In this document: piece by piece, positions 6,915 to 57,795 of the stretch
Numbering within the stretch: the stretch's first letter is position 1
Layout of the letters: the number at the start of each line of letters is the position of its first letter
Assembly: GCA_964404925.1 (NCBI GenBank)
Contig: CAYOLW010000001.1
Span: forward strand, 105,408-169,407
DNA length: 64,000 bases
Source of the DNA: an uncultured Candidatus Saccharibacteria bacterium
GTDB lineage: Bacteria; Patescibacteriota; Minisyncoccia; Phycocordibacterales; UBA9973
Reading direction: 5' to 3'
The notes under the pieces: generated by a model
What the model was told of the DNA's origin: nothing
Database searches by the model: none
What the model saw: the letters and a program-made list of their open reading frames with translations, nothing else
Made by a program: the position numbers and the translations under genes

Positions 6915-6916
6915 AA

Positions 6917-33248: not shown

Positions 33249-33827
33249 TTAGTTCTTAAGCCAATTTTTGTATTCAGTTAGTATTTTTTCTGCGGTTTGT
33301 TCGATACTGTTAGCGTGAGTATCTATAACTAAATTATAGTTCTGTAAGTCTGTATTATTGATTTGATATAAATCCCAGTAACGTTTTTGCTCACTTTCAA
33401 ATCTCTTGACCATATTTGCATAAACTTCTTCTGAGGTGCCGCTTTGTTCACTTTTTTTACGCATCTCGTCTTCAGATAAACTTCGGATAATTCTCTCCTT
33501 GGCAATTTCTCGGGGTAGGGTAAGGTATACCTTAAAAGACTCTGGTATCCAATGGTAAGCAGTACGTGAGTCTATGACCACATCATGCGCATTTCGCATG
33601 CCACGAAGCTTGTCATCGGTCATAACATCTATTTGGGGGTCTGTTTCGGCTCGAATGTTTAGTTCGGTTACAGTGATACCCAAATCCATACCTACTTGTC
33701 TAAAAAAATCTCCAGATGAGAAGTGTTGATAGCCAAGTTCTTTAGCTATTCTTTTGGCAGTAGTAGACTTTCCGCTACCGAGCCACCCATTAATAGTTAT
33801 TATTGTCTTCTTGTTTTGCTGCTCCAT
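33249..33827 (-). CDS. cmk: Archaeal-type cytidylate (CMP) kinase
   Basis: TINGWLGSGKST (P-loop), then SSGDFFR and a short (192 aa) architecture that resembles the archaeal/short CMK family rather than bacterial Cmk. Confidence 0.65.
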   Translation of the reverse strand: MEQQNKKTIITINGWLGSGKSTTAKRIAKELGYQHFSSGDFFRQVGMDLGITVTELNIRAETDPQIDVMTDDKLRGMRNAHDVVIDSRTAYHWIPESFKVYLTLPREIAKERIIRSLSEDEMRKKSEQSGTSEEVYANMVKRFESEQKRYWDLYQINNTDLQNYNLVIDTHANSIEQTAEKILTEYKNWLKN

Positions 33828-33899
33828 GCCACATTAAAGCATATTTGGCTTAAAAAATAAAATTTGATTTTATGGCCTTTTTGCTGTAATGTAGGAATC

Positions 33900-34490
33900 A
33901 TGAGTCAGCCTAAAACATATGTATTTTTTGGCATTATTGGTTCCGGCAAAGGAACTCAAATAGACCTCCTTAAAAAGTTTTTTAAAGATAAATATAATCA
34001 AGAAAACGTATATGCGTACCCCGGGGCAATGTATCGCAAACTAGTTGGGGAGGGTAATCACTTCGGAAATCTTGTTAAAGCTTCTTTGGATCGTGGTGAA
34101 TTACAACCTGATTTACTAACCACTTCACTGGTGGTAAATGTTTTAATAAATTCTTATACCCCGGAGAAGGTGTTGTTTTTTGACGGATATCCAAGAACCA
34201 TAGAACAATCGAAGAGTTTTGAAACATTGTTAGATATTTTAAAAATTACAGAAGTCGAAATTATTTATATTGAATTGAGTAAGGAAGAAGCCATGCGTAG
34301 GAATCTGGCTCGAGGAAGAACCGACGATACAATTGATGCAATAAATAAACGTTTTGACGAGTATATAAACAATGTCGTTCCAGCAATGAAATATTTTGAG
34401 AATATGTCGAACTATTCTATTCATAAAATAAATGGTGAACAAAGCATTGAAGCAGTCCATGCGGATATTATTAAATCTCTAAATATCTAA
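33900..34490 (+). CDS. adk: Adenylate kinase
   Basis: GIIGSGKGTQ (P-loop), FDGYPRT and an AK-like LID/NMP layout. The start is the ATG at 33900. Confidence 0.8.
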   Translation: MSQPKTYVFFGIIGSGKGTQIDLLKKFFKDKYNQENVYAYPGAMYRKLVGEGNHFGNLVKASLDRGELQPDLLTTSLVVNVLINSYTPEKVLFFDGYPRTIEQSKSFETLLDILKITEVEIIYIELSKEEAMRRNLARGRTDDTIDAINKRFDEYINNVVPAMKYFENMSNYSIHKINGEQSIEAVHADIIKSLNI

Positions 34491-34491
34491 T

Positions 34492-35181
34492 ATGGAAGAA
34501 GAAAGAATTGTTATTTCATTAGGAGGGTCGCTCATCGTGCCAGAAAACATAGACTCTGATTTCGTTAAGAAATTTAAAGAAACAATTCTTTCTCACGTTA
34601 AGGAGGGAAAAAAATTCGTTATTATAACTGGTGGTGGCAGGACTAGTCGTAAATACACAGATGCCCTTTCTGTTATTATGCAAGATGTAACTACTAAGCA
34701 ATTAGATTGGTTGGGTATTTATGCGACTAGATTAAATGCACATATGTTGCAGATGGCTATAGGTGAGGATTTTGCCAAAAGGGAAATAATAGAAAATTTA
34801 GACGAAGATATAGATTTTTCTACGCCAATTCGTATTGGTGGTGGTACAAAACCAGGACACAGTTCCGATGGTGCAGCGGTTGAAATAGCTAAAAAGATTG
34901 GTGCAAAGAAAATAATAAACTTATCAAACATAGATCATGTTTATGATTCTGACCCACGCAAAAACAGCAATGCTAAAAAGTTTGAAAAAATTTCTTGGAG
35001 TCAATATTTGGATTTAATTCCAAAAGAATGGACTCCTGGTCTATCAACCCCATTTGACCCAATCGCTTCCAAAGAAGCACAGGAGTCTGGTATACAGGTC
35101 ATAATAATGAATGGTAAACCCACAAGTAATCTAGATACTTATTTATCTGGCGGTGAATTAGATGGTACTTTAATTGGTTAA
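34492..35181 (+). CDS. pyrH: Uridylate (UMP) kinase, archaeal-like short form (amino-acid kinase fold)
   Basis: VISLGGSL, ITGGG and IGGGTKPGHSSD are carbamate/UMP kinase family motifs in a 229-aa protein. Confidence 0.75.
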   Translation: MEEERIVISLGGSLIVPENIDSDFVKKFKETILSHVKEGKKFVIITGGGRTSRKYTDALSVIMQDVTTKQLDWLGIYATRLNAHMLQMAIGEDFAKREIIENLDEDIDFSTPIRIGGGTKPGHSSDGAAVEIAKKIGAKKIINLSNIDHVYDSDPRKNSNAKKFEKISWSQYLDLIPKEWTPGLSTPFDPIASKEAQESGIQVIIMNGKPTSNLDTYLSGGELDGTLIG

Positions 35182-35182
35182 T

Positions 35183-35953
35183 ATGGCAATAATTATAAAA
35201 ACTAAAAAAGAAATAGAGAATTTACGCGTTGCGGGAAAGCATTTAGCCCAAGTATTGCAAAAAGTAAAAGCAAAAGTGGCACCTGGTGTATCAACTTTAG
35301 AACTTGACCAATATGCTGAAAAACTAATTCGTGAACTTGGTGATACTCCAGCTTTTTTAAATTATCGACCAGTCGGAGCGCGGACTCCTTTTCCAGCAAC
35401 ACTTTGTGTATCAATTAATGATGAAGTTGTACATGGTATCCCAAAAGCAAATAGAATACTAAAAGAAGGAGATATTATTTCTATCGATCTTGGGCTTAAA
35501 CACGAAGGAGTATTTACCGACCATGCGATGACTGTACCAGTAGGGAAGATAGATTCTGTGTCAAAAAAACTACTTGAAATTACGGAGAAAGCTTTAGAAG
35601 TAGGTATCGCTGCAGCTCAGTCGGGTTTCCATACAGGTGATATTGGTGCAGCTATTGAACAGTTTGTAAAAGTACACAAATACGGCATAGTTGATATTTT
35701 AGCGGGACACGGGGTAGGTAGATATATTCATGAAGATCCATATATTCCAAATTTTGGTAAACCAAGTACCGGAGCAAAGCTTGTGCCGGGTATGGTAATA
35801 GCCATAGAACCGATGCTTAACATCGGAACTAAGAATGTTTTCCTGGAAAAAGATGATTGGACTTTTAAAACAGCTGATGGTAAACGCAGTGCTCATTTTG
35901 AACACACTGTTTTGATAACCGAAGAAGGTCCAGAGATTTTAACTCTACCGTAA
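35183..35953 (+). CDS. map: Type I methionine aminopeptidase
   Basis: MAIIIKTKKEIENLRVAG..., and the metal ligands D...D...H...E...E (pita-bread fold) across 257 aa. Confidence 0.9.
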   Translation: MAIIIKTKKEIENLRVAGKHLAQVLQKVKAKVAPGVSTLELDQYAEKLIRELGDTPAFLNYRPVGARTPFPATLCVSINDEVVHGIPKANRILKEGDIISIDLGLKHEGVFTDHAMTVPVGKIDSVSKKLLEITEKALEVGIAAAQSGFHTGDIGAAIEQFVKVHKYGIVDILAGHGVGRYIHEDPYIPNFGKPSTGAKLVPGMVIAIEPMLNIGTKNVFLEKDDWTFKTADGKRSAHFEHTVLITEEGPEILTLP

Positions 35954-35984
35954 ACTATAAAATTTTGATGTATAATATAGAGTA

Positions 35985-38771
35985 ATGGATATACTTTCAT
36001 TTAAAGGTGTACCAAAATTCAAAACAGCTGAAGAAGAACTGCATTTTTTACGTAATCAAGTAGCTGAAAAAGAGAAGGCTTTGATCGAGCAAGGTCATTT
36101 TGAACACGCACAAGAAAAAGCTATAACCAGTACAATTGCTGAATATAAAAATATTCCAGTAGACGATGTTGTCCATAAAGAGAATGCAATCAAAGAAGAA
36201 GATACTGAAAACATTGTACTTAAGCTAAGACCTGAAACACACGATACCGTTATGGAAGAACTGTTAGGTTTAATGATTACTAAGGGTATTAGGAATGTGA
36301 TGTCTGTGGTTGAGTCAATGAATGATCCACATATTGATGATGACTTCCACAGATTACTGATTCAATATTTAAAAACTGGCCAAGCAATCCCAGGCATGAT
36401 TGATGGTTCACCTCTTTGGAAGCAGCTCAACATGACTCTTTTTGAAGTTACGTTACCAGCGCCTAAGGATGAGGCAGATAAAAGCAAAGGATTTAAAGAA
36501 TTCATTGGTGCCATGGAGCAGTTCTATGCTGGTATGCACTCCATATCTGGAGACCCACGTAATTTAAAAGAAAACTATTTTACTTTAGAAATTGCACTTT
36601 CTAGTTCTTCGGATCAGGTGGTGGTATATGCGGCTGTGCCGAATAAGTATTTAGCTTTGTTTGAAAAACAAGTGCTAGCTTTCTATCAAGATGCCAAGGT
36701 AGAGGAAGTGAATGATGACTATAATGTGTTTAGTAGTGGTGGGGTTTCCGTCGGTGCTTATGCGACATTTTCTGAAAAACCAGTTTTACCTATTAAGACC
36801 TATGATGTGATTGATCATGATCCGATGAATACTCTTTTAAATGTATTCTCTAAATTAAAAACCCATGGCGAGGGTGCAGCTATTCAATTAGCTATTGCAC
36901 CGGCTGGAGATAAATTTATTAATGATTTTACTTCTATCTTGCGTGAGGTTAAAAAGGGTACTTCCGTTAAATATGCATCAGACGAATTTTATAAATTCAG
37001 CGCAGCTTTTATCAAGGTTGGACGAGAGATATTTATGGGACATGAGAAGAAAAATGAAGACGGTGAAAAAGCCATGCCGGGACGCCGATCTGTAGATGAA
37101 GGAGCGGCCGAGAAAATAGCTAATAAAATAAAAAGCAGCATCATGCGAGCGAATATTAGATTCGTTGCTTCAGCAGAGACCAAGGAAAGGGCAGAAGCTA
37201 TCCTGGCAGAAATTGAATCTTCTTTCAATCAGTTTACTGAACCAGCTAGTAATTCTTTCTTGTTTGAGAAGTTGAAGGGTAGCGATTTGAAAAAGCTATT
37301 CCACGACTACTCATACCGTGCCTTTAATCCAGATAAAGTAATGCCAATGAACCTAAAAGAGCTTGCTTCAGTTTTCCACTTCCCAGTTGGTATTGGTTCA
37401 CAACCTGCACTTAAAGAAGCAAAGGCTGGTATGGCACCTGCGCCTATGGAGCTGTCTACTGGTCCAGCCAAGGATGGTATATTGCTCGGTATTAATAGTT
37501 ATCGAGGTAAAGATACAGAGATTTGGATGTCTAGAGAAGATCGTATGCGTCATATGTATGTAATCGGACAGACCGGTACCGGTAAGACCACCATATTGAA
37601 AAACATGATTGCTCAAGATATCAAAAACGGCGATGGTTGCTGTTTTATTGATCCGCACGGTACGGATGTTCAGGAAATATTGTCTTATGTTCCCAAAGAA
37701 CGTATGGATGATGTTATCTACTTTGACCCTGCCTACACAGCTCGTCCGATGGGACTTAACCTACTTGAGTATGATCCAAATTACCCTGAACAGAAAACAT
37801 TCGTGGTAAACGAACTTATGGGAATTTTCAATAAACTTTTTGATATGAAAGTTGGTGGTGGTGCGATGTTTGAACAGTATTTCCGTAACAGTGCATTTCT
37901 AGTGATGGAAGATCCAGATTCAGGTTCAACATTGCTTGAAATTACTCGGGTCCTGGCCGACAAAAACTTCCGTGACATGAAACTCGCCAAGTGTAAAAAT
38001 CCAATCATCAAACAATTCTGGATTTCAGCTGAGGAGACTACTGGTGATCAATCATTGGCAAACTTCGTTCCATATATTTCTTCAAAGTTTGATAACTTTA
38101 TTTCTAACGACATTATGCGTCCGGTGGTATTGCAGCAGAATTCTGTATTTGATTTTCGTAAGATTATGGATGAGAAGAAAATACTCTTGGTAAACCTCTC
38201 AAAGGGTAGACTAGGGGACATTAATGCGAACCTGATTGGTCTTGTGCTAGTGGGTAAGATTCAGATGGCTGCACTTTCTCGTGTGGACATGTTTGGTAAG
38301 AAGATGAATGACTTCTATCTATATATCGACGAGTTCCAGAACGTAACAACTGATTCTATTGCTTCTATACTTTCTGAAGCTCGTAAATACCGCCTGTCAC
38401 TCAACGTTGCCCACCAGTATATTTCTCAGCTTGAGGATAATATTAAAAATGCTGTTTTCGGTAACGTAGGATCTATGGCTATATATCGTATTTCGCCAGA
38501 GGACGCTAATTTCGTGGAGCCTAAATTTAAACCAATGTTTACTGCGAATGATATTACTAAACTTGATAACTTTAATTCTTATGTAAACATGTTGGTGCGA
38601 GGTACACCAGTAAAACCATTCTCGATGACGTCCCACTGGACACTCCTCGGAGATAAGGGAAATCCAGATATTGTTGAGCCACTCAAAGAACTTTCGTATT
38701 TAAAATACGGTCGTCCTCGAGAAGAGGTCGAGTCAGAAATATTAGCACGATACGATTCGTTGAAATCGTAG
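35985..38771 (+). CDS. Large (928 aa) P-loop NTPase. The C-terminal half resembles a TraD/TraG/VirD4 (type IV coupling protein, AAA_10-like) ATPase. The ~500-aa N-terminal region has no recognised family and no predicted TM helices.
   Basis: Walker A is HMYVIGQTGTGKTT, followed by DPHG. Walker B plus the sensor reads LYIDEFQN...ARKYRLSLNVAHQYISQL, which fits the T4CP DEF..QL pattern. Confidence 0.55.
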   Translation: MDILSFKGVPKFKTAEEELHFLRNQVAEKEKALIEQGHFEHAQEKAITSTIAEYKNIPVDDVVHKENAIKEEDTENIVLKLRPETHDTVMEELLGLMITKGIRNVMSVVESMNDPHIDDDFHRLLIQYLKTGQAIPGMIDGSPLWKQLNMTLFEVTLPAPKDEADKSKGFKEFIGAMEQFYAGMHSISGDPRNLKENYFTLEIALSSSSDQVVVYAAVPNKYLALFEKQVLAFYQDAKVEEVNDDYNVFSSGGVSVGAYATFSEKPVLPIKTYDVIDHDPMNTLLNVFSKLKTHGEGAAIQLAIAPAGDKFINDFTSILREVKKGTSVKYASDEFYKFSAAFIKVGREIFMGHEKKNEDGEKAMPGRRSVDEGAAEKIANKIKSSIMRANIRFVASAETKERAEAILAEIESSFNQFTEPASNSFLFEKLKGSDLKKLFHDYSYRAFNPDKVMPMNLKELASVFHFPVGIGSQPALKEAKAGMAPAPMELSTGPAKDGILLGINSYRGKDTEIWMSREDRMRHMYVIGQTGTGKTTILKNMIAQDIKNGDGCCFIDPHGTDVQEILSYVPKERMDDVIYFDPAYTARPMGLNLLEYDPNYPEQKTFVVNELMGIFNKLFDMKVGGGAMFEQYFRNSAFLVMEDPDSGSTLLEITRVLADKNFRDMKLAKCKNPIIKQFWISAEETTGDQSLANFVPYISSKFDNFISNDIMRPVVLQQNSVFDFRKIMDEKKILLVNLSKGRLGDINANLIGLVLVGKIQMAALSRVDMFGKKMNDFYLYIDEFQNVTTDSIASILSEARKYRLSLNVAHQYISQLEDNIKNAVFGNVGSMAIYRISPEDANFVEPKFKPMFTANDITKLDNFNSYVNMLVRGTPVKPFSMTSHWTLLGDKGNPDIVEPLKELSYLKYGRPREEVESEILARYDSLKS

Positions 38772-38779
38772 TTGTATAA

Positions 38780-39310
38780 ATGAAGAAAGTCGTTATTGCA
38801 TCGGAAAACCCAACCAAGATTGAAGCAGCTAGGCTGACTTTTGCTGCTGTATTTCCGGATGAGGTTTTTGAATTTGTTGGGGTTAAATCTGATTCTGGTG
38901 TTCCAGATCAACCAATGAATGAGCAAACTCGAAAAGGCGCTGAAAACAGATTGGCTTTTATTCGTGAAAAATATCCAGATGCAGACTATTGGATGAGCCA
39001 AGAAGGTGGAACTTTTGAAGAAGGGGATAAACTGTATAACCGAGCTTGGATTATGGTATGTGATAAAGATGGTTTTGTGGGCGAAAGTTCTACTTCTCAT
39101 TTTTATTTACCAACTGAGATGGTTAGCCATATTCGTAATGGCTTAGAAATGGGTCATGCTGGAGATAAATTTTTTAATACCCAGAATATAAAACACTCAA
39201 ATGGAGTTGTTGGTGAATTAACCCGCGGTGTGTATTCTAGAGCAGAATACTACTCACAGGCAGGGATAATCGCACTATCTACAGTGGTGCATAAAGAATG
39301 GTTTAACTAA
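38780..39310 (+). CDS. yjjX: Non-canonical purine NTP phosphatase (inosine/xanthosine triphosphatase, YjjX family)
   Basis: SENPTKI, GVPDQP, TRKGAENR and GELTRGVYSRAEYYSQAGIIALS closely parallel YjjX. Confidence 0.75.
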   Translation: MKKVVIASENPTKIEAARLTFAAVFPDEVFEFVGVKSDSGVPDQPMNEQTRKGAENRLAFIREKYPDADYWMSQEGGTFEEGDKLYNRAWIMVCDKDGFVGESSTSHFYLPTEMVSHIRNGLEMGHAGDKFFNTQNIKHSNGVVGELTRGVYSRAEYYSQAGIIALSTVVHKEWFN

Positions 39311-39311
39311 G

Positions 39312-39340
39312 TTGTAGAATATAGATAAATCTGCTAATAT
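39312..39340 (+). promoter_or_regulatory. Promoter candidate for ndk (TTGTAG -17- TAATAT; extended -10 ATCTGCTAATAT)
   Basis: The AAATCTGCTAATAT stretch is identical to the tuf promoter -10 region. Confidence 0.5.
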
Positions 39341-39368
39341 AGCGTTATTATTAACTATTTTTAAAGTT

Positions 39369-39884
39369 ATGCAATTAGAACGTACGCTTATTGTTTTTAA
39401 ACCAGATGCTGTGTCTCGTGGGGTTGTTGGAGAAATTTTAGCTCGTTTTGAAAAAGTTGGGCTCAAAATCATTGGATCAAAAATGCTGAAACCAGATTAT
39501 GATCACTTCTTTCATCACTACGAAAACATTGGGAAAGTTATATCTCGCCGTGGGCAGAAAGTTTTTGATATAACCCTTGAAATGATGACCACTGGTCCTG
39601 TTATCGCTTTTGTGCTTGAAGGTATTGAAGCAGCAGCCCTTGTACGCAAGATGGTTGGTGCTACAGAACCTAAGTCAGCTTTGCCTGGAACTATTCGTGG
39701 AGATTATTCACATATTAGTTACGGTTATGCAGATCAAAACGAGGTAGGTATACCTAATTTGATTCATGCTTCTGGTGATGCAGAAGAAGCCAAGCAAGAA
39801 ATCGCTCACTGGTTTTCAGAAAATGAATTATTCGACTACGAAACAGTGCACGAGAAGTTTACTCAAGTGAAAAAGAAAAACTAG
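39369..39884 (+). CDS. ndk: Nucleoside diphosphate kinase
   Basis: ERTLIVFKPDAV.RG..G.I..RFE..GL and the GSD...A..E C-terminal region match NDK. Confidence 0.9.
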   Translation: MQLERTLIVFKPDAVSRGVVGEILARFEKVGLKIIGSKMLKPDYDHFFHHYENIGKVISRRGQKVFDITLEMMTTGPVIAFVLEGIEAAALVRKMVGATEPKSALPGTIRGDYSHISYGYADQNEVGIPNLIHASGDAEEAKQEIAHWFSENELFDYETVHEKFTQVKKKN

Positions 39885-40089: not shown

Positions 40090-40170
40090 GATAGCCCTAA
40101 GAAACATCCGCCTCAATGGCGGATTTTTCTTTGCGCCTCCTCGGTGCATTCGCCGTTGAGGCGAATTGAT
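40090..40170 (+). promoter_or_regulatory. Candidate structured leader or attenuator upstream of the membrane protein gene. A terminator-like hairpin (atccgcctcaatggcggat+ttttt) has alternative pairing partners (cgcctcaatggcg versus cgccgttgaggcg).
   Basis: The hairpin and the mutually exclusive complementary segments can be seen directly in the sequence. Confidence 0.35.
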
Positions 40171-40193: not shown

Positions 40194-40613
40194 ATGAATC
40201 GGAAGAAGTTGTTTAATCGTCTGGCAAGTCTCGTGATTTTTATATCACTCATTAATTTTCTAGCGATAAAATTTCATTGGTACTACTCTATCTGGTGGTT
40301 TGATATGCCGATGCATTTCCTTGGAGGTATGTGGGTAGGACTTTTCCATATATGGTATTTAATACACCGAGAACTCTCGGCTAAGGAGATTGGGCAAGTT
40401 ATTCTGGGTGTGTTTATTGTAGCTTTCGCTTGGGAGGCTTTTGAATTTATTTTAAATGCTCAAACGGTAAAAAATGCCTTTGATTTACGGGATACAGTAT
40501 CTGACCTGTTCTTTGGTCTATCGGGTGGATTTACTGCAATATTCTATGTGTTTCTAAGGATTATGAACATTCCAAAAAGTACGCTACAATTCTATAATGC
40601 AGAAAAAAATTAA
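40194..40613 (+). CDS. Hypothetical integral membrane protein, possibly VanZ-like
   Basis: A 139-aa protein with 3-4 TM helices and an FDLRD...SD...G.SGG motif reminiscent of the VanZ family. Weak assignment. Confidence 0.4.
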   Translation: MNRKKLFNRLASLVIFISLINFLAIKFHWYYSIWWFDMPMHFLGGMWVGLFHIWYLIHRELSAKEIGQVILGVFIVAFAWEAFEFILNAQTVKNAFDLRDTVSDLFFGLSGGFTAIFYVFLRIMNIPKSTLQFYNAEKN

Positions 40614-45583: not shown

Positions 45584-46342
45584 CTAGCTCATTTCCTGAA
45601 TAATTTGATCCATCATGAGTGCTGCCGGGAGGCGAGCGACATCAAGCGGTACAAAGTAATCTCCTTCAACCTTGCTTGCGTCCGCTGATACGGATATACC
45701 TGCAGCATCAATCATTTCTTTATCATTTAGATTGTCTCCAATAGCCAGCACTTCACCCTCGGCCAAGCCCAGGTAGTTCCTGTATGCAGAGAGGCCCACT
45801 GCTTTGTTCTGAATTCCTTTGACCCCGATGTCATATGCTTCGCCGTTCCAGATGGCATACAGGCGGTCATTCTCGGCGACGATGTTTTCAATCTCTGGGA
45901 CTCTATCTGTACAATGGATGGTGATTATTAATTCTTTGGGTTCAAAGCCTTTCACGTTTTCGTGTCTGGACTCGATGCCGCGTAATTTCAAAAAAGTTTC
46001 TTGCAAATGGTCAAAGCTGTTCACGTGCTGGATTATTTCTCCGCGGTGCCAGGTGGCGCTGCCGTTCTCGTATGTGAGACTGGTAAAGGGAAGTATGTCT
46101 CGGAAAACTTCTTGCAGCATATACAACCCGCGTCCAGAATTGATATTGATCATGAACCCTAGTTCTTTTAATTTCTTGATCTGCTCAATCTGCTCGGGGG
46201 CGATGTGTTTCGTCTCGAGTGTTGTAATGTTATTTGATTGTTTTATATTCGTTCCACGGGGGACCAATACTCCATCTACATCGAAAACTATTAGTTTAAT
46301 ATTTTTCAAAACATCCTTCGTTAGTTCCTCAATTGGTTTCAT
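45584..46342 (-). CDS. HAD-IIB (Cof-like) hydrolase
   Basis: LIVFDVDGVL (motif I) and GDNLNDKEM (motif IV) are present. Confidence 0.7.
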   Translation of the reverse strand: MKPIEELTKDVLKNIKLIVFDVDGVLVPRGTNIKQSNNITTLETKHIAPEQIEQIKKLKELGFMININSGRGLYMLQEVFRDILPFTSLTYENGSATWHRGEIIQHVNSFDHLQETFLKLRGIESRHENVKGFEPKELIITIHCTDRVPEIENIVAENDRLYAIWNGEAYDIGVKGIQNKAVGLSAYRNYLGLAEGEVLAIGDNLNDKEMIDAAGISVSADASKVEGDYFVPLDVARLPAALMMDQIIQEMS

Positions 46343-46376
46343 GAGTTAATTCTAAGCTTTTTATTCCTAGCGTCAA

Positions 46377-47570
46377 ATGGGAAAATTATGTTATTATAAC
46401 AATATGCAAAAGGAAACTGTTCCATTTGTGAATAAAAATAATCTAGTTTGGTGTCGAGAAAAATCTGGTTTAACTATTAATCAGGTCTATGAAAAAGCTA
46501 AGTGGTCATCAAAAACTCATAAAATTGAAAAATGGGAAGCCGGTTCAGATTTTCCTACCATAGATGACTTAAAAAAGCTTGGTAAAATTTACAAAAAGGC
46601 TTGGACACTTTTTGTTTTTGAGCAAGATTTGAAAAATTTAGATTTCATGGTAATGAAAGATTTTCGTGGCTGTATCTCAGATTCTAAAGGGGAAGAAAAG
46701 AGTGAAATAATTCAGTTTCTAAATGAAATAGAACGTCGACAACTATTTGTCATTGAATTCTCTAATGCCCTTGAAATTATCGGTAATAAAAGTTTTGGTT
46801 CGTTGACTGAAGTAAAGGATGTTAATGTCGTTGCGAATAAAATAATCCAAAATCTTAATCTTAATATGGAAGAATTTCGCAGAAAGAAAACAAGATTAGA
46901 AGCCTTAAATTTCTTGCAAGAAGAATTGGGGCGAAATAATATATTTGTTTCTTTTTCTAGCACCAATCCACATAAAAAAATAAGTCTTGAACATATGCGT
47001 GGGGTTTTAATGAGGTCTTTTCTGGCACCAATTATTGGTATTAATTCTGCAGAAAAGTCGGTGGGCGCTAAGATTTTTACTATTTTTCATGAGCTTGCAC
47101 ACCTGTACACAGAAAAGGTTGATCATGATGTTTTAATTGACACTATTAATTTTCGAGATTTAGGTAAGCGTAATACAAAAGAGGGCTTGTGTGATCAGAT
47201 AGCTGCAGAAATATTAGTACCCCGTAATATTCTTGTTGAATTAAAAGGCACTTCATTCAATCCAGAGATTGTTAAGAAATATTGTATTTATTTGAAAGTT
47301 AATCGTGAGCCTTTTTTAATACGTGCAAAAGAACATGGTTTAATTAGTGAACAAGAATTTAACTCATTAAAAAATATTTCGGTTGAAGAACAAATTAAAA
47401 AAAATAAAAAAGGTAATCCGGATGGCGGTTTATTGCATATTTTGAAAAATGGCAAGTCTTTTATGCGGCTTGTTAATTCTCTTTACTCAACAGGCCTAAT
47501 ATCATATTCACAAGCACTAGGTGCTTTAAATACAAAATCCAATGCTTTTAATAAATATGTAATTAGATAG
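46377..47570 (+). CDS. XRE-family HTH domain fused to an ImmA/IrrE-family (COG2856, DUF955) zinc metallopeptidase
   Basis: The N-terminal HTH reads LVWCREKSGLTINQVYEKA. HELAHL (HExxH) lies in the C-terminal domain. Confidence 0.7.
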   Translation: MGKLCYYNNMQKETVPFVNKNNLVWCREKSGLTINQVYEKAKWSSKTHKIEKWEAGSDFPTIDDLKKLGKIYKKAWTLFVFEQDLKNLDFMVMKDFRGCISDSKGEEKSEIIQFLNEIERRQLFVIEFSNALEIIGNKSFGSLTEVKDVNVVANKIIQNLNLNMEEFRRKKTRLEALNFLQEELGRNNIFVSFSSTNPHKKISLEHMRGVLMRSFLAPIIGINSAEKSVGAKIFTIFHELAHLYTEKVDHDVLIDTINFRDLGKRNTKEGLCDQIAAEILVPRNILVELKGTSFNPEIVKKYCIYLKVNREPFLIRAKEHGLISEQEFNSLKNISVEEQIKKNKKGNPDGGLLHILKNGKSFMRLVNSLYSTGLISYSQALGALNTKSNAFNKYVIR

Positions 47571-47574
47571 ATTT

Positions 47575-48063
47575 ATGGAAGTAAACAAATCAGCACTATA
47601 TGTTTTCGATAGTAACTGTTTTATTGAGCCTTGGAATAAGTTTTATTCTTACGAATTTTTTGAGCAATACTGGGATAAGTTTTTAAAAAAAAGTTTAAGC
47701 GATTGCACAGTCTTAATTCAAGAAGAAGTTTATAATGATATTCTAAAAAAAGATGATGGTCTTAATCGTTGGTTGAAAGGTTTTAAGATAGAAATTGTTA
47801 AAACTGATATAAGTATAACTCGAGAAGTTGCGGCTATAAATAATAAATTCCCAAAGTTGACAAAAGAATATAGTGGTAGATCTTTTTCAGATCCTTTTGT
47901 AATAGCACTAGCTAGGTTTCGTAAGGCAACAGTTGTAACCATGGAAGATTTCGGTAGTGAAAATAAACCAAAAATACCATTTGTATGTGACCAAATGGGT
48001 GTTAAATGTATTGATTTATTTAAGTACTTAAAGATTGAAGGCGTATCTTTTTCAATCAAATAA
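47575..48063 (+). CDS. DUF4411-like PIN-like nuclease-fold protein, partner of the ImmA/IrrE gene
   Basis: YVFDSNCFIE, SDPFVIALA and VVTMED fit the PIN-like acidic-residue pattern. It lies 4 nt downstream of the ImmA-HTH gene. Confidence 0.6.
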   Translation: MEVNKSALYVFDSNCFIEPWNKFYSYEFFEQYWDKFLKKSLSDCTVLIQEEVYNDILKKDDGLNRWLKGFKIEIVKTDISITREVAAINNKFPKLTKEYSGRSFSDPFVIALARFRKATVVTMEDFGSENKPKIPFVCDQMGVKCIDLFKYLKIEGVSFSIK

Positions 48064-48239
48064 TTTTTTGTTGTGGACTTAGTAGCGAAAAGTGCGAACC
48101 AAATGAGAGCCTTTATAAATCAATGGTCAGAGTTCTTTAAACATAACAAACCAAACTTTCAAACAACCTAAAACCTTTATTTTAAAACATTTTATTGCTT
48201 ATTAGATATCACAATAAGAGTATTGAATACTATCTATTA

Positions 48240-49517
48240 CTACAGGTTCTTAAAATAAAAGTCTGGCAGAACAACTTTTAATTCTTCGTTAGCTGCACGA
48301 TAGCGATCTGGCGAGTGCGGAGTTGATGGATATTTATCAACGTCTTGAGGATTAGGTCTTTCTATTAGTTTTATGTCAAAAGTATTAAGTATTTCCTTGT
48401 CTTCACCGACAACTAACCTGTTTGTATATTGTAAGTAGGAATTGTTTGTTATTAATATAAGTCTAGCTATTTCATTTCCAGCACTAATAGCTTTTACCTT
48501 AACAAACTGTTTAAAGTAAGAGTAATTATCTTGGACATTAATGTATTTTGATGCTGTAACAGCAATACATATAAGTCTATTAGGTTTATATCCCAGCCTT
48601 GATAGTTCAATGTAATCAAGATTGGCTTGTCTTAATATGAGCTTTATTTTTCTCATAGTCATTTCGGGATATCTTATGTGTATGTACTCTAAAAACTCAG
48701 TAAGTTTTTTATCTTCACCTATAGTGTCAGTTGGATCAGCTTCAAATACATCAGCTACAAAATCTTGTAAATTACTCTCACTTTTTTTATTAAAAAACTC
48801 AATATAATCAAAACATTTTAAGTATGTTTCAATGTTGTCTTCATAACTTTTATTTGATACAGCAACAATAACGGTAACTTGTTTTTGTAAGGTATTTTTA
48901 GTTAAAAACTGTCTAAATGTTTCTAAAAAGAAAAGTCCATCTGGTCCTGATCTATCTATGTCTTCAATAACAAAAACTATCTTATCTTTATCCACTGCAT
49001 TAATAAGTGAGGTAAAAATATCTTGTATTTCAAACACTCGTCTTGCTGGAGACTTATCAGCAAAGTATTCAAGATTTTTTACAAGTCCAAATAGTGGTTC
49101 AAGTAACTTAGGTAACCCAAAAGCAGTAGTTGCAACATTCAAGATAGAACCAGCGGTATTTATTCCTAGTTTCTTGTCTTTACCAGATTGCCCATCAACT
49201 TCTCGTTTAACTTTTTCAAGCATACTTAGTTGTCTAGCTGTTTCAAGGATTAGCCCGTCCCATAATTCTTTGCGCTCTGGAAATTGCCAAGCATCAAAAT
49301 GGACCCACTGCTCAGTTGTTTCTTTTTGTTTTCTAATCTGTTCAATCAAGGTACTCTTTCCAACACCAAAAGGTCCGATAATTCCTATTATTTGAGAACC
49401 TTTCTTTGATTGCAACTTCTCAGTTAGCGTACTTACCGAAGAAGAGATATTAAGATAGTCTTTATCAGAAACTTTTTCTTCTAGTAAATCAACATTTTTT
49501 ATAAAACCATTTTTCAT
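48240..49517 (-). CDS. KAP-family P-loop NTPase
   Basis: IGIIGPFGVGKSTL (Walker A) and IVFVIEDIDRSGPD (the KAP-type DDLDR Walker B) are present. It lies 15 nt downstream of the Abi-alpha::Nudix gene. Confidence 0.7.
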   Translation of the reverse strand: MKNGFIKNVDLLEEKVSDKDYLNISSSVSTLTEKLQSKKGSQIIGIIGPFGVGKSTLIEQIRKQKETTEQWVHFDAWQFPERKELWDGLILETARQLSMLEKVKREVDGQSGKDKKLGINTAGSILNVATTAFGLPKLLEPLFGLVKNLEYFADKSPARRVFEIQDIFTSLINAVDKDKIVFVIEDIDRSGPDGLFFLETFRQFLTKNTLQKQVTVIVAVSNKSYEDNIETYLKCFDYIEFFNKKSESNLQDFVADVFEADPTDTIGEDKKLTEFLEYIHIRYPEMTMRKIKLILRQANLDYIELSRLGYKPNRLICIAVTASKYINVQDNYSYFKQFVKVKAISAGNEIARLILITNNSYLQYTNRLVVGEDKEILNTFDIKLIERPNPQDVDKYPSTPHSPDRYRAANEELKVVLPDFYFKNL

Positions 49518-49532
49518 AACGCCTAAATCTTA

Positions 49533-50933
49533 TTAATTAGATTTAATTATTAAAGTATTTTTTACTTCTTTAAAAATAGCCAACATATCATCACTTAAAA
49601 TTAAATTTATGAACTTCTTTTTGTCTTCTTCAGATAAGTTTGGTAAATCGTCAATTTTCCAAGCTTCAAAACCTTCTGCTTTACCTTCTTCAACTTTTAG
49701 ATCTGAGATAGGACCTTCATAAAGATAGGCATACTGGCTACGGATTGTGTTATTAGTAAGTTTAGTTACCTCATCAAAACTTTCCTTTCTCATTTTTCTT
49801 AGAAAAGTTAGCTTTGAAAGATCAATATCAATACCTGTTTCTTCTTTGCATTCTTTTACAGCGGTTTCTTCATATGACATTTTGGGTTCAACGTGTCCTC
49901 CAACAGTAGCGTCTAATTTATCAGGATAGGTATCTTTGTTTTTTGCTCTATGTTGAAAAATAATCTCTCCTTGAGGCGTAATAAACCAGATATGTATTTC
50001 CCGATGGAGAAGTCCGTCTTTGTGTATTTTTGAACGAGTTTGAAGACCCACTACTTTATCATCCTCATCAATTACCTCAAGGATTTCTTGGTATTTATAA
50101 TTTGATATTGAGTAGTGTTCTTTTAACCACTCAGTATACCCATCAACCTTTTTTGTTTTCAGATGTTGCAATATTTCTTTACCAGCAACAGAAATTGCAT
50201 AAAAAGTAGGTATTCTTAAATCTGCATTATTTTCTATGATTGGTTCAAAAACAATTTGCTCATCAAAGTAATCAATTATATACGGTAAGCCATCAGGGTT
50301 AGATATATTTCTAGTCATATCGTTTGGTAAAAATAAGCCTAAACTTTGCAGTGCTTGGAGACTACCAAAATGTAAACCTAATCCAGACATCATTTCTTTA
50401 ACATTTTCACTGCCACTGAATAAATCTTTTGGAAGTTGCTCATTATTTAACAATAGCCCAGATATTTTTTCAAAAAGCTCTAGTTCTTTTTTACCTATGG
50501 ATTTTAATGTTTGCAAAGTGCTCATTGAATAAGTTTCAGGATTGTTGTATTCTCCAGCGATTATTTTTGCAATCAAATCTTGAACCTCTTCATTTGAAAC
50601 TTCTTTTGCGTGTTCAAGAAGTCCCCAGAAGACGTCATTGTCATCTTTTATATTATTTTCAGAACTCGTAATCAAGTCTTTGGTTTTAAGTAAAGCATTA
50701 CCCAAGTTGGCATATTGGCGACCCATTTTTTGAGCTTCCGCTTGTAACCAAAAAGGTTTTTCTAAAAGTTCCCATTTTGTTTTAACCTTGTCAGCTTCAA
50801 TATCTCCCTCAGCTTCAAAAACTTTTATGGATTTACCTGTATACTTTGTAATTACAAAATCAACAAACTTATCAGCCACCTTTGTTAAGGTCGCTTTTCC
50901 TAGATCTTTTAATGGTTGAGGTAAATCGCTCAT
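49533..50933 (-). CDS. Fusion protein: an N-terminal Abi-alpha-like (DUF4393-like) domain and a C-terminal Nudix hydrolase domain
   Basis: The N-terminal region has ...DVFWGLLEHAKEVSNEEVQDLIAKIIAGEYNNPETYSMSTLQTLKSIGKKELELFEKISGL, which resembles Abi-alpha. The C-terminus has the Nudix box GGHVEPKMSYEETAVKECKEETGI. The start is the ATG at 50933, preceded by an extended -10 TGTTAGAAT. Confidence 0.6.
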   Translation of the reverse strand: MSDLPQPLKDLGKATLTKVADKFVDFVITKYTGKSIKVFEAEGDIEADKVKTKWELLEKPFWLQAEAQKMGRQYANLGNALLKTKDLITSSENNIKDDNDVFWGLLEHAKEVSNEEVQDLIAKIIAGEYNNPETYSMSTLQTLKSIGKKELELFEKISGLLLNNEQLPKDLFSGSENVKEMMSGLGLHFGSLQALQSLGLFLPNDMTRNISNPDGLPYIIDYFDEQIVFEPIIENNADLRIPTFYAISVAGKEILQHLKTKKVDGYTEWLKEHYSISNYKYQEILEVIDEDDKVVGLQTRSKIHKDGLLHREIHIWFITPQGEIIFQHRAKNKDTYPDKLDATVGGHVEPKMSYEETAVKECKEETGIDIDLSKLTFLRKMRKESFDEVTKLTNNTIRSQYAYLYEGPISDLKVEEGKAEGFEAWKIDDLPNLSEEDKKKFINLILSDDMLAIFKEVKNTLIIKSN

Positions 50934-50998
50934 AATTGCTATTCTAACATTTTTAAGATTAAAAAATAAGTCTAAAAATGGTATAATTAGGTGTATAA

Positions 50999-51370
50999 AT
51001 GGTGGAAAAAACATATAACTTTAATAATCTTAAAATCCGATCAAAAGCTATTGCAAAAGCTCGTATTTCAACTCGTCCAAAGACATATAACTCTAAGAAA
51101 AAACGCTTGGAAGACATACAAAGAGAACTGATAAAATCAGAACTTATAAAAGAAGGATTTTTAGACCAATTAAAGCCACATATGCCAAAAATAACAGAGG
51201 CTGTTATTCAGAGTGCTTGTGATCCAAGCTCTAAGGGTACAAGTGACAGGAGAATTATATTTCAAGCGGTTGGTATTTTAGGAAAAGATACTCAAGTAGA
51301 GCCAAGCCAGACAATAGCGGATGTGTTAGCTGAGATTTTTAGTGAAGAAGTAGTAAACAGTAAAAGCTAG
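50999..51370 (+). CDS. Hypothetical protein (island cargo)
   Basis: An ORF with ATG, transcribed divergently from the Nudix gene and preceded by TGGTATAAT. No family recognised. Confidence 0.4.
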   Translation: MVEKTYNFNNLKIRSKAIAKARISTRPKTYNSKKKRLEDIQRELIKSELIKEGFLDQLKPHMPKITEAVIQSACDPSSKGTSDRRIIFQAVGILGKDTQVEPSQTIADVLAEIFSEEVVNSKS

Positions 51371-51418
51371 GAAAATCTAGGGAATTATAAATATATCCCT
51401 TGATATGCTATAGGTAGT

Positions 51419-51634
51419 CTATGTTTTTTCTTTATTAGAAGTTATTTTGTAATAATTTGGAAATAGAACTTTAACTTTGTCTTTTTTAGTGGCTAATTTA
51501 GCCAAAAATGGCTTCATAACGAGCTTTGGACGCTCAGATATAGATTTGTTCCATAACCACTTTTTATAGCTATTTATGACTATTTTACTTAAGAAACTAG
51601 TCATACGACTATTTCTTAGATCTAAGCTTTTCAA
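51419..51634 (-). CDS. Hypothetical small basic protein
   Basis: The ORF overlaps the upstream membrane-protein ORF by 26 nt in another frame. It could be real or a frameshift remnant. Confidence 0.25.
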   Translation of the reverse strand: MKSLDLRNSRMTSFLSKIVINSYKKWLWNKSISERPKLVMKPFLAKLATKKDKVKVLFPNYYKITSNKEKT

Positions 51635-52007
51635 CTTTATAAGCTTTATATAAGAAAAATACGGTAAGCCCAGTAAAAAAGATTATAAAGTAAAGGATAT
51701 CTGGACTACTTGAAAAGTCACCATTTATATCTCTTCTACTTTCAACATATCTAGCTAAAATAATAAAACCTAAAATAATAGAATATATTTTTGTTGTGAT
51801 AACCAAACCAACACTAGCTTTCTTGATAAGTAGGTAAGAAAATATAAATCCTAAAATAGTAAAGACTAAAGGTGCAGCTAAGGATAAGAGTATTAAAAAA
51901 ATAGCTGCAACACCTCTGTTTGTTTTGTGCCATTTAAGACTTTTGTATTGTTCTACTTGCTTTATAAAAGAACTTTCTTTTTGCTTGATTTCTTCAGTTG
52001 TGATCAT
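51609..52007 (-). CDS. Hypothetical membrane protein
   Basis: A 132-aa protein with 3-4 predicted TM helices. Confidence 0.4.
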   Translation of the reverse strand: MITTEEIKQKESSFIKQVEQYKSLKWHKTNRGVAAIFLILLSLAAPLVFTILGFIFSYLLIKKASVGLVITTKIYSIILGFIILARYVESRRDINGDFSSSPDILYFIIFFTGLTVFFLYKAYKVEKLRSKK

Positions 52008-52671
52008 ATTTTTTGTATAAAAAATAGGCTAATAATTTAGCCTATAAACAAATATAGGCAACCCAGTGGGTGCTCACAAAACCAATAGACAAGCTACTGA
52101 TTATGCTTCCCACATAGGTCGCCTATGCTTGGCACAATCAGTAACTAACCCTTTTTAAGGGTTCGCTTGATGTCTTTTTATTGGTTTTGTGAGCAAGTTA
52201 ATGATAACATAATTTGATTTTATTTTTAAGTTATAAATGTTATAATGTACCTAACTAGAGATTTTCTAGTTAGGTCTGACACAACCTTAAGCTCAAAAAA
52301 GACACTTTTTAATTTTTACAATAGTCTTGAGAGTAATAATGTGATTAAGCTAGTTTTGAAACATAAAAATGTACCCACTAGTTAAAAGAAAGCTAGCCGA
52401 GTTGTATGCTTTATTTATGTTAGAAAATGCACAAAGTAGCTTAGTGTGAAGTTGCAACTTATCACCTCGTGATATTTCCAATCAAGTACACAGAGTAAAT
52501 AAATAAATCCTCCTGCCTCTTACAGGAAATCCTTGAAGATAGTATCTCCAAGCCGATTAAGGGTTTATTTGCCACTCTGTCTAGCTGATTAGACGTATCG
52601 CAAAGACACAGCCTTTATGGGCTGTTTTTTTGTTTTATTAGGTGTCACACAAACCCACTATGCCAAACTAA

Positions 52672-52830
52672 AATGACATTAGAGGAGTTTAAAAAACATT
52701 TTAAAAACAAAAATGTAAATGATGAGCGTATAAAAGAAATACGCGATTATTTGTATGCAATTTCAAGAGAAATTGTCTTAAACAATTTAAACGAATACGA
52801 AAAACAGATAAAAGAAAAAGGTGTAAAGTA
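52672..52830 (+). CDS. Small ORF (52 aa) immediately upstream of the recombinase. It could be a recombination directionality factor or Xis-like helper, or a spurious ORF.
   Basis: It runs from an ATG at 52672 to a TAG at 52828-52830 (MTLEEFKKHFKNKNVNDERIKEIRDYLYAISREIVLNNLNEYEKQIKEKGVK). The assignment rests on position only. Confidence 0.25.
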
Positions 52831-52843
52831 GTATAATGAATAT

Positions 52844-54490: not shown

Positions 54491-54812
54491 AGTTTTAAAC
54501 TCATAGATTATTAAACGAACAAAATATCTTTGAGTCGATTCCTAAGTTTTCGTGAGTTGTGCGGACGGGCAACTCCTTATTCCGATAATATTACACCTTA
54601 ACCCATGCATCGGAAGTCGATGGGCAAGACGCCAGATTCGACTAAGCGAAAGCTGGAGCAAAAGCGAAATCCTTCATACCGAAGTATGGAGATTTCATTC
54701 CTGCCTTAGATGCTAATTTTGCAATTAGACTTTGAACGCTTATTAACGAGCATGCGTTCATCCTCGACATGCATCAAGACACGACGGCTTACTGTCTATG
54801 CCTGGCAGTCCC
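54419..54812 (-). ncRNA. ssrA: tmRNA (ssrA)
   Basis: On the minus strand the 5' end is GGGACUGCCAGG and the 3' end is GGGGGUUCAAUUCCCCCCAGUUCCAC (tRNA-like T-arm). The acceptor stem has the G3:U70 wobble typical of Ala charging. The conserved UGCAUGUCGAGG box and PK1 are present, followed by an internal ORF ending GCU UUC GCU UAG. It is adjacent to smpB. Confidence 0.85.
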
Positions 54813-57712: not shown

Positions 57713-57721
57713 TTTCTATTG

Positions 57722-57795
57722 TCCACCCTCATGGATTCGAACCATGGACCCCAGAGGTATAAGCTCTGTGCTCTAACCAACTGAGCTAAGGGTGG
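57722..57795 (-). tRNA. tRNA-Ile with anticodon UAU (74 nt; CCA not encoded; C1:G72; discriminator A)
   Basis: A cloverleaf can be drawn by eye: acceptor CCACCCU/AGGGUGG, D-arm GCUC/GAGC, anticodon stem CAGAG/CUCUG with loop CUUAUAC, and T-arm CAUGG-UUCGAAU-CCAUG. Confidence 0.7.

What the first reader, a model, noticed from the sequence alone, without database searches (positions are those of the whole stretch)
35985..38771. 928-aa TraD/VirD4-like P-loop ATPase with a 500-aa N-terminal domain of unknown function, inside the conserved map-to-ndk core cluster
The C-terminal half has Walker A HMYVIGQTGTGKTT, DPHG, Walker B LYIDEFQN and a downstream RKYRLSLNVAHQYISQL. This pattern matches type IV coupling proteins (TraD/TraG/VirD4, AAA_10 or TraG-D_C-like). 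The protein has no predicted TM anchor, and the N-terminal half matches nothing I recognise.

It is not in an obvious mobile context. It sits between map and yjjX/ndk, where typical bacteria have infA-rpmJ-rpsM-rpsK-rpsD-rpoA-rplQ. That placement suggests a conserved lineage-specific function, for example DNA or protein translocation linked to the type IV pilus/competence machinery that is common in CPR.
Basis: partly seen in the sequence, partly recalled or inferred. Interest (0 to 1): 0.55.

Follow-up and report, generated by a model that had tools for sequence, protein, structure and literature searches.

The report
Core VirB4/VirD4-hybrid ATPase of Patescibacteria
This gene encodes a very strongly conserved housekeeping motor ATPase of Nomurabacteria-type ultra-small bacteria that joins a VirB4-like N-terminal domain to a coupling-protein-like ATPase; it is related to conjugation machinery but is not on a mobile element, and its job is still unknown.

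Summary

The gene is core and not cargo. The order map-X-ndk holds in about 80 genomes. Median identity is 74% (ATPase half 84%), the same as SecY, L20 and IF3. No relaxase, integrase or T4SS gene is adjacent in any clade.

This protein has no TM segment, but 21 of 23 shorter family members carry an N-terminal TM anchor where it has a ~140-aa helical module.

An ortholog is already listed in the literature as an orphan "T4CP" far from virB4, in a genome that also has a canonical VirB4.

The function is unproven. The most likely role is a membrane-proximal second ATPase of the chromosomal patescibacterial T4SS. A T4SS-independent DNA motor is the main rival.

The parts
35985..38771 (+). Complete ORF, 928 aa plus stop: DUF8128 / T4CP-like ATPase
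35985..36404 (+). aa 1-140: soluble all-helical N-terminal module, specific to the long-form clade. The conserved motif GIxNAL...NxPHxxDDFHRxLVQY lies at aa ~98-128. This module replaces the TM anchor of short-form relatives.
   Evidence: AF2 helices 15-130. Many relatives match only from aa ~145. It is the least conserved part, 59% identity. A profile of aa 78-140 hits a separate small ORF upstream of a TM-anchored homolog at E 1.1e-8.
36405..37394 (+). aa 141-470: DUF8128 core, an alpha/beta domain with the VirB4 N-terminal-domain fold. Invariant residues: E202, D245, F249, Q301, K381, R445, E459. A disordered loop spans aa ~340-370.
37470..38768 (+). aa 496-928: P-loop ATPase domain of the VirB4/VirD4 type
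37566..37592 (+). Walker A GQTGTGKTT (aa 528-536), preceded by the R-x-R-H motif (aa 520-523) shared with TrwB
37650..37661 (+). DPHG (aa 556-559), a T4CP-like D-P-x-G motif after strand 2. D, P and G are invariant.
37782..38174 (+). aa ~600-730: all-alpha insertion between Walker A and Walker B, equivalent to the all-alpha domain of T4CPs
38319..38342 (+). Walker B LYIDEFQN (aa 779-786); D782 and E783 are conserved in 28 of 30 members
38382..38432 (+). RKYRLSLNVAHQYISQL (aa 800-816): R800/K801/Y802 and A809-H810-Q811, Q815 are conserved; this is the sensor / TraG-D_C region
35174..35953 (+). map (methionine aminopeptidase), the conserved upstream neighbour, 31 nt before the ORF
39369..39884 (+). 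ndk, the conserved downstream neighbour. It is directly adjacent to the ORF in most relatives.
38780..39310 (+). NTPase_I-T (yjjX-like) gene: a lineage-specific insertion between the ORF and ndk, not part of the conserved cluster
   Evidence: 1 of 80 loci
40106..40124 (+). Terminator-like hairpin plus T-run after ndk, a possible end of an adk-pyrH-map-ORF-yjjX-ndk transcription unit (consensus match only)

Best explanation
The gene encodes a vertically inherited, housekeeping-grade member of the VirB4/VirD4 (type IV secretion) ATPase superfamily with a hybrid build. It has a clade-specific helical module (aa 1-140), a DUF8128 domain with the VirB4 N-terminal-domain fold (aa ~141-470), and a P-loop motor with an all-alpha insertion (aa ~496-928). 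The sequence signatures of the motor (R-H before Walker A, D-P-x-G after it, the TraG-D_C region) are those of coupling proteins.

Shown: the domain identities, the intact catalytic motifs, the core non-mobile status, and the fact that most shorter family members are anchored by one N-terminal TM helix with the bulk in the cytoplasm.

Inferred: like its relatives it forms a ring-shaped ATP-driven motor at the cytoplasmic face of the membrane. It serves as the second, coupling-type ATPase of the chromosomal relaxase-less T4SS that Patescibacteria carry elsewhere in the genome (VirB4, VirB3, VirB6, VirB8, TrsD, VirB2-like pilins). It docks through its VirB4-like domain and, in this clade, through the helical module in place of a TM anchor. 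It feeds or energises transport of an unknown substrate, protein or nucleic acid.
For: - T4CP-type profiles: TrwB_AAD_bind 28/30, TraG-D_C 28/30, T4SS-DNA_transf 9/30 (best 7.8e-12), and no VirB4 Pfam family. NCBIfam's top four are TraD/TrbC/VirD4-like. TrwB and IcmO are the best PDB sequence hits. hhalign against TrwB gives prob 94, against TrwK prob 9.
- Core status: map-X-ndk holds in ~all of 80 loci at 64-80% identity and in a 62%-identical relative. Median identity is 73.9% (ATPase half 83.9%) against SecY 75.9, L20 75.4, IF3 76.4, S5 70.6, map 68.9.
- Membrane link: 21 of 23 short forms have an N-terminal TM helix followed by a basic stretch.
- T4SS link: ortholog KKS24372.1 is scored T4CP (t4cp1, 88% coverage) in Table S3 of PMC12102498, in a genome that also has a VirB4 and three VirB2-like pilins. 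T4CP homologs occur in 2,918 of 3,035 Patescibacteria genomes. A T4CP held at the membrane by a partner protein, not by its own TM segments, has a precedent in pIP501 TraJ/TraI (PMC12857230).
Against: - No T4SS gene lies next to the gene in any of the contexts examined.
- According to PMC12102498, only 148 of 5,713 patescibacterial T4CP homologs are near virB4, and T4CP homologs occur in more genomes than VirB4 (2,918 against 2,417).
- The same paper says the t4cp homolog of Southlakia epibionticum was not essential for epibiotic growth although the T4SS genes were. I could not test whether that homolog is a DUF8128 protein.
- By structure the motor is equally close to DptH-C and nearly as close to HerA. 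Neither is a secretion ATPase.
- Oligomeric state, membrane association of this TM-less form, substrate and partners are all untested.
Confidence: 0.5

Rival explanations
1. It is a T4SS-independent housekeeping nucleic-acid motor. In this reading it is a membrane-proximal or cytoplasmic ring translocase acting on the cell's own or imported DNA (segregation, repair, or uptake/scavenging of nucleic acid for nucleotide salvage). It would descend from T4SS ATPases but no longer be part of a secretion machine.
For: - The gene is never adjacent to T4SS genes and always sits among information-processing or housekeeping genes.
- In the TM-anchored clade it lies next to dnaX in three independent loci. 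Elsewhere it lies near DnaB/RecR/RmuC.
- In this clade it is embedded among cmk, adk, a pyrH-like gene and ndk, and upstream of a beta-CASP nuclease.
- Its conservation equals that of SecY and ribosomal proteins.
- The closest non-patescibacterial sequence relatives (32% identity, E 1e-63) are soluble or differently fused ATPases, mostly on non-mobilizable replicons.
- T4CP homologs are more widespread than VirB4 in the phylum.
Against: - The neighbourhood is conserved only within sub-clades, so no functional partner emerges. The adk-map position is simply the tail of the ribosomal spc operon.
- A VirB4-type N-terminal domain is otherwise known only from T4SS ATPases.
- A comEC mutant of Southlakia is viable, which argues against an essential DNA-uptake route in that organism (PMC12857230).
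- No DNA-binding domain or nuclease partner was identified.
Confidence: 0.3
2. It is a second, highly divergent VirB4 paralog. It would act as an energising or pilus-biogenesis ATPase that pairs with the canonical VirB4, for example as an outer ring or hetero-oligomer, and would not be a substrate-recruiting coupling protein.
For: - hhalign to pGO1 TrsE/VirB4 gives prob 81 over 329 columns, against prob 36 for pGO1 TrsK/T4CP.
- Patescibacterial T4SSs have pilins, unlike other monoderm systems.
Against: - No VirB4 sequence profile matches: Pfam CagE_TrbE_VirB and AAA_10 hit 0/30, and NCBIfam VirB4_CagE gives E 0.039.
- hhalign to R388 TrwK gives prob 9, against prob 94 for TrwB.
- The Walker-A-flanking motifs RH and DPxG are T4CP-like.
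- CONJScan classes the ortholog as t4cp1 and not virb4.
- There is no adjacent VirB3-like gene.
Confidence: 0.13
3. It is an ordinary conjugative coupling protein, or a defence-island ATPase, carried on a mobile element that happens to sit here.
For: NCBI names such as "TraM recognition domain-containing protein". A weak PADLOC mad8 match, E 1.2e-13. Distant relatives lie near CHAT/TPR genes on a Bradyrhizobium plasmid.
Against: - The position is identical in ~80 genomes.
- G+C is the same as the flanks.
- No relaxase, integrase or repeats are present.
- Identity is as high as for ribosomal proteins.
- Scores are far below the curated cut-offs of the TraD/VirD4 equivalogs, e.g. 51.6 against 366 bits.
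Confidence: 0.03

Closest known systems
Type IV coupling proteins (VirD4 / TrwB / TraD / IcmO-DotL)
   Different: Only ~16% identity to TrwB. There is no N-terminal two-TM domain; instead there are ~470 aa comprising a helical module and a VirB4-like domain. No relaxase or T4SS neighbours and not on a mobile element. It is conserved like a ribosomal protein. Scores are far below the NCBIfam equivalog cut-offs.
VirB4 (TrwK of R388, TrsE of pGO1, T. pseudethanolicus VirB4)
   Different: No VirB4 sequence profile matches. There is no adjacent VirB3. An ortholog-bearing genome has a separate canonical VirB4. The Walker-A-flanking motifs are T4CP-like.
Orphan patescibacterial "T4CP homologues" of Quinonero-Coronel et al. 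2025 (PMC12102498)
   Same: This is that class. Ortholog KKS24372.1 is listed there (T4CP, t4cp1, not near virB4). The authors note that such genes may have been exapted for other functions.
   Different: In the text I could read, the paper does not describe the DUF8128 / VirB4-like N-terminal domain, the TM-anchored versus helical-module forms, the ribosomal-operon synteny or the degree of conservation.
TM-less T4CP-like ATPases on plasmids and in conflict islands; DptH/DndH C-domain; MADS mad8
   Different: Those proteins have unrelated or absent N-terminal regions and sit in variable or defence-like contexts. None has DUF8128 (tblastn of the N-half against 72,556 plasmids gave no meaningful hit).
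pIP501 TraJ (a T4CP said to be anchored to the membrane by TraI)
   Same: Precedent for a coupling ATPase held at the membrane by a partner protein and not by its own TM segments (PMC12857230).
   Different: TraJ is plasmid-borne, works with a relaxase, and has no VirB4-like domain.

Membership tests
T4CP (VirD4/TrwB/TraD) | VirD4-type P-loop NBD recognised by curated T4CP profiles | tested here: met
   Pfam TrwB_AAD_bind 29.3 bits (cut-off 20.5). At family level TrwB_AAD_bind 28/30, TraG-D_C 28/30, T4SS-DNA_transf 9/30. The ortholog hits CONJScan t4cp1 at 88% coverage.
T4CP (VirD4/TrwB/TraD) | All-alpha domain inserted in the NBD | tested here: met
   [not shown]
T4CP (VirD4/TrwB/TraD) | N-terminal transmembrane domain anchoring the hexamer | tested here: not met
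   No TM-like segment in this protein or in the other long forms. Short-form relatives have one N-terminal TM helix.
T4CP (VirD4/TrwB/TraD) | Genetic association with a relaxase, oriT or T4SS on a mobile element | tested here: not met
   Housekeeping neighbours in all loci examined; fixed synteny.
T4CP (VirD4/TrwB/TraD) | Score above the curated equivalog cut-offs (NCBIfam TraD/VirD4 models) | tested here: not met
   Best is SXT_TraD, 51.6 bits against a cut-off of 366.
T4CP (VirD4/TrwB/TraD) | Substrate or relaxosome recruitment and hexameric DNA-dependent ATPase activity | not testable with these tools
   Needs biochemistry.
VirB4 | VirB4-type N-terminal domain fold | tested here: met
   [not shown]
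VirB4 | VirB4-type C-terminal ATPase fold | tested here: inconclusive
   [not shown]
VirB4 | Recognition by VirB4 sequence profiles | tested here: not met
   No CagE_TrbE_VirB or AAA_10 hit in 30 members. NCBIfam VirB4_CagE E 0.039. hhalign gives TrwK prob 9 but TrsE prob 81.
VirB4 | Encoded next to virB3 and other mating-pair-formation genes; one per T4SS | tested here: not met
   No such neighbours. The ortholog's genome has a separate VirB4, KKS24061.1.
FtsK/SpoIIIE and HerA | Closest fold and profile match; FtsK gamma/alpha-beta domains or the HerA HAS-barrel | tested here: not met
   [not shown]
Pfam DUF8128 (PF26449) | Match to the family model | tested here: met
   The precomputed PF26449 assignment is on the identical protein P0001 and on all close and distant homologs. 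The model is not in the local Pfam copy, so I could not re-score it.

The most novel reading that the evidence does not exclude
DUF8128 ATPases may be a third, ancient lineage of type IV secretion ATPases that keeps the VirB4 N-terminal domain together with a coupling-protein-type motor. That would make it a living intermediate between VirB4 and VirD4. In Paceibacteria-type CPR bacteria it would have become an essential single-copy housekeeping translocase whose substrate is central to the epibiotic lifestyle, for example import or export of host-derived macromolecules. That would explain conservation on a par with SecY.
Probability: 0.25. Interest if true: 0.75.

Novelty: new variant of a known kind. 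Interest (0 to 1): 0.55.

Why it matters
Patescibacteria have tiny genomes, yet nearly all of them keep T4SS-type ATPases. In the one genetically tractable species the T4SS is essential for life on the host, but its substrate and its coupling ATPase are unknown. This gene family is a concrete candidate for that missing motor, or alternatively for a new housekeeping DNA translocase. It is single-copy, it is conserved as strongly as SecY, and its build (VirB4-like domain plus T4CP-like motor) has not, as far as I could find, been described. The work gives the uncharacterised Pfam domain DUF8128 a structural identity. It also yields testable predictions: docking to VirB3/VirB6-type partners, the invariant residues E202, D245, Q301, K381, R445 and E459, and interchange of the TM anchor and the helical module. 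Finally, it bears on how VirB4 and VirD4 diverged.

Tried and rejected
2. hhalign of the family against pGO1 TrsD, a VirB4-NTD-like protein abundant in Patescibacteria, gave no relationship.
3. Head-to-head hhalign against single VirB4 and T4CP references gave contradictory rankings: pGO1 favours VirB4 and R388 favours T4CP. I do not use these to decide VirB4 versus VirD4.
4. I looked for T4SS or pilus partners among the large ORFs of the window and found none.
5. I considered a nucleotide-salvage role from the cmk/adk/pyrH/ndk/beta-CASP neighbourhood. I down-weighted it because more distant family members sit in quite different housekeeping contexts.
6. Defence-system membership: only a weak mad8/HerA-level match in PADLOC.
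7. The idea that the helical module is generally a separate upstream gene in TM-anchored forms is supported in one locus (L083, E 1.1e-8) but not in L081, L082, L093, L094 or L095.
8. Literature searches for PF26449 and DUF8128 returned no papers.
9. The exact protein could not be located in the contig index, so the rest of the source genome could not be inspected for VirB4.
10. The Southlakia and TM7x rows of Table S3 were not in the stored part of the supplement.
Full report
**1.

ORF 35985-38771 (+) is a 928-aa ATG-started reading frame. The other ORFs overlapping it are short (at most 86 aa; a 173-aa minus-strand ORF overlaps only its 3' end). Its translation contains Walker A GQTGTGKTT (aa 528-536), DPHG (556-559), Walker B LYIDEFQN (779-786) and RKYRLSLNVAHQYISQL (800-816). 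No stretch reaches TM-like hydrophobicity; the maximum Kyte-Doolittle 19-residue mean is 1.54, inside the ATPase core.

G+C does not differ from the flanks. A terminator-like hairpin follows ndk at 40106-40124, and the gaps around the ORF are 31 and 8 nt, so co-transcription with map and ndk is plausible. That rests only on consensus scans.

**2. The C-terminal half (aa ~496-928)**

Curated profiles point to coupling proteins:
- Pfam TrwB_AAD_bind is above its cut-off, and TraG-D_C is just below its cut-off.
- The four best NCBIfam models are TraD/TrbC/VirD4-like, though all are far below the equivalog cut-offs.
- The best PDB sequence matches are TrwB and IcmO/DotL.
- Across 30 diverse family members, TrwB_AAD_bind and TraG-D_C hit 28/30 and T4SS-DNA_transf hits 9/30 (best 7.8e-12). 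No VirB4-specific Pfam family hits any member.
- The residues flanking Walker A (R-x-R-H before it, D-P-x-G after the next strand) align with TrwB and are absent from TrwK and TrsE.

An AlphaFold2 model built on a 30-sequence alignment is confident (pLDDT 83). It shows an all-helical insertion (aa ~600-730) between Walker A and Walker B, as in T4CPs.

The nearest relatives of the motor outside Patescibacteria are TM-less "T4SS DNA-binding domain" proteins, mostly on non-mobilizable replicons. One example is a Bradyrhizobium plasmid protein: 32% identity over aa 510-883, E 1e-68, with an unrelated N-terminus.

**3. The N-terminal half**

Sequence methods gave nothing. The precomputed annotation of every homolog carries PF26449, which a gene table names DUF8128. 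No paper in the library mentions it.

An exhaustive phmmer search with aa 1-490 against 1.84 billion representatives found 1,039 proteins at E<=1e-3 and 599 at E<=1e-10. Full-length members are 800-1,120 aa. Many match only from query residue ~145.

Seven N-domain residues (E202, D245, F249, Q301, K381, R445, E459) are invariant across members that are only 27-84% identical in this half.

**4. Family architecture**

Long forms, including this protein, have no TM segment but carry a ~140-aa helical module. Short forms (~790-850 aa) begin with one strongly hydrophobic helix followed by a basic stretch, directly ahead of the DUF8128 core. This holds for 21 of 23 checked. By the positive-inside rule the bulk of the protein would be cytoplasmic.

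A profile of aa 78-140 hits the separate small ORF immediately upstream of one TM-anchored homolog (L083:7517-7996) at E 1.1e-8. It gives no hit in five other short-form loci. The module is therefore sometimes a stand-alone partner gene, but this is a single case.

Named members are Nomurabacteria, Paceibacterota, Minisyncoccia, Parcubacteria, Portnoybacteria and Pacebacteria.

**5. Core gene, not cargo**

A scan of one genome per species returned 564 relatives. In the best 80 loci (64-80% identity) map precedes the gene in 76 and ndk follows it in 71 (many loci are cut by contig ends). The wider order S5-L30-secY-(cmk)-adk-pyrH-map-X-ndk-hyp-betaCASP-LOG-L20-IF3 recurs. A 62%-identical relative keeps the same order. 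The yjjX-like gene occurs in only 1 of 80 loci, so it is the insertion.

Median identity across these loci:

| Region or gene | Median identity (%) |
|---|---|
| Whole protein | 73.9 |
| Helical module (aa 1-140) | 58.7 |
| DUF8128 core (aa 141-495) | 69.4 |
| ATPase half (aa 496-928) | 83.9 |
| SecY | 75.9 |
| L20 | 75.4 |
| IF3 | 76.4 |
| S5 | 70.6 |
| map | 68.9 |
| pyrH-like | 54.4 |
| adk | 51.9 |

(All values.)

In more distant members the gene is again single and lies among housekeeping genes: L10/L12, L21/DnaB/RecR, L28/ProRS, FtsQ-like/DnaX, FtsH. It never lies beside T4SS genes, relaxases or integrases. The window itself holds no VirB4- or VirB6-like gene.

**6. What is already known**

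Quinonero-Coronel et al. 2025 (PMC12102498) report the following:
- VirB4 is present in 2,417 of 3,035 Patescibacteria genomes.
- There are 5,713 VirD4-type T4CP homologs in 2,918 genomes, and only 148 of them are near virB4.
- Relaxases are almost absent.
- The Southlakia t4cp homolog was not essential, although the T4SS genes were, so exaptation "cannot be ruled out".

Their Table S3 lists KKS24372.1, a 76%-identical ortholog of this protein (P0066), as T4CP/t4cp1 at 88% coverage and not near virB4. The same Nomurabacteria genome also has a VirB4 and three VirB2-like pilins. The gene class is therefore already catalogued as an orphan T4CP, and this protein is not that genome's VirB4.

Wang et al. 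2023 (PMC10633639) state that the essential Southlakia T4SS cluster lacks recognisable coupling and relaxase proteins. The 2025 FEMS review (PMC12857230) notes pIP501 TraJ as a T4CP anchored by a partner protein. It also notes that a comEC mutant is viable.

**7. Interpretation**

Shown:
- The domain identities.
- The intact catalytic motifs (K534, D556, P557 and G559 invariant; D782/E783, R800 and H810/Q811 in 28 of 30).
- The non-mobile, core, highly constrained status.
- Membrane anchoring in most short forms.

Inferred: the protein is a ring-shaped membrane-proximal motor that acts as the second, coupling-type ATPase of the chromosomal relaxase-less T4SS, docking through its VirB4-like domain (confidence about 0.5).

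The main rival is a T4SS-independent DNA motor (about 0.3). It is favoured by the lack of any T4SS linkage, the recurrent dnaX/DnaB/RecR neighbourhoods, the structural closeness to DptH and HerA, and the wider distribution of T4CP homologs than of VirB4. A divergent second VirB4 paralog is possible (about 0.13). A mobile-element T4CP or a defence ATPase is effectively excluded (about 0.03).

**8. Verdict**

The gene is a new variant of a known kind: a T4SS-family ATPase with VirB4 architecture and a T4CP-type motor, fixed as a housekeeping gene. The interest is moderate. The class is already noted in the literature and the function remains unproven. The structural identification of DUF8128, the alternation between TM anchor and helical module, and conservation at the level of SecY make it a well-defined target for a real open question in CPR biology.

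Noticed in passing
window 38780-39310 (+): The NTPase_I-T (yjjX-like, inosine/xanthosine triphosphatase family) gene between the ATPase and ndk is found in only 1 of 80 related loci. It is a lineage-specific insertion into an otherwise fixed gene order.
   Followed up: partly
window ~46300-54500: A low-GC island (0.31-0.33 against ~0.39) carries an ImmA/IrrE-type M78 peptidase plus DUF4411, a KAP-family NTPase, a DUF2806-NUDIX protein and a serine recombinase (52844-54490). The 3' end of the recombinase abuts the tmRNA gene (54417-54812, minus strand). It looks like a mobile or defence island integrated at ssrA.
   Followed up: no
window 61611-61698 (-) and 57721-57795 (-): ARAGORN calls a tRNA-Ser with anticodon ACT (A at position 34, unusual for bacteria) about 90 nt from a divergently oriented tRNA-Ser(GCT). 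It also calls a tRNA-Ile with anticodon TAT. Both pass the Rfam tRNA threshold, but the anticodon calls were not checked.
   Followed up: no
L083:7517-7996, upstream of the TM-anchored homolog at L083:8001-10523: A separate small ORF ends in the same conserved helical motif (GLNQAI...NPYVIDRVHDELV) as aa ~98-128 of the window protein (profile E 1.1e-8). This suggests fusion or fission of a partner module. It was not seen in five other short-form loci.
   Followed up: partly
L081, L083, L093: In the TM-anchored short-form clade the DUF8128 ATPase gene repeatedly lies a few genes upstream of, or directly next to, dnaX (DNA polymerase III tau/gamma). In two loci it also lies downstream of an FtsQ-like POTRA gene.
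   Followed up: no
L084:505-3381 and L084:8001-11363: One contig carries a 1,120-aa DUF8128 variant about 4.6 kb downstream of a second 958-aa TrwB_AAD_bind-type ATPase, with an AAA protein and a MYG1-type exonuclease between them. This may be a multi-ATPase cluster.
   Followed up: no
[not shown]
   Followed up: no
window 5880-7927 (-) and 33249-39884: Nucleotide-metabolism genes are concentrated in the window: dcd, folA and thyA on the minus strand, and cmk, adk, a pyrH-like kinase, the yjjX-like NTPase and ndk around the ATPase gene, followed by a beta-CASP nuclease and a SLOG/LOG protein.
   Followed up: partly
window 40194-40613 (+): A conserved 139-aa protein with three TM-like segments follows ndk in 54 of 80 loci and overlaps the start of the beta-CASP gene by 17 nt. 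The equivalent gene in L090 is annotated DUF2238.
   Followed up: no
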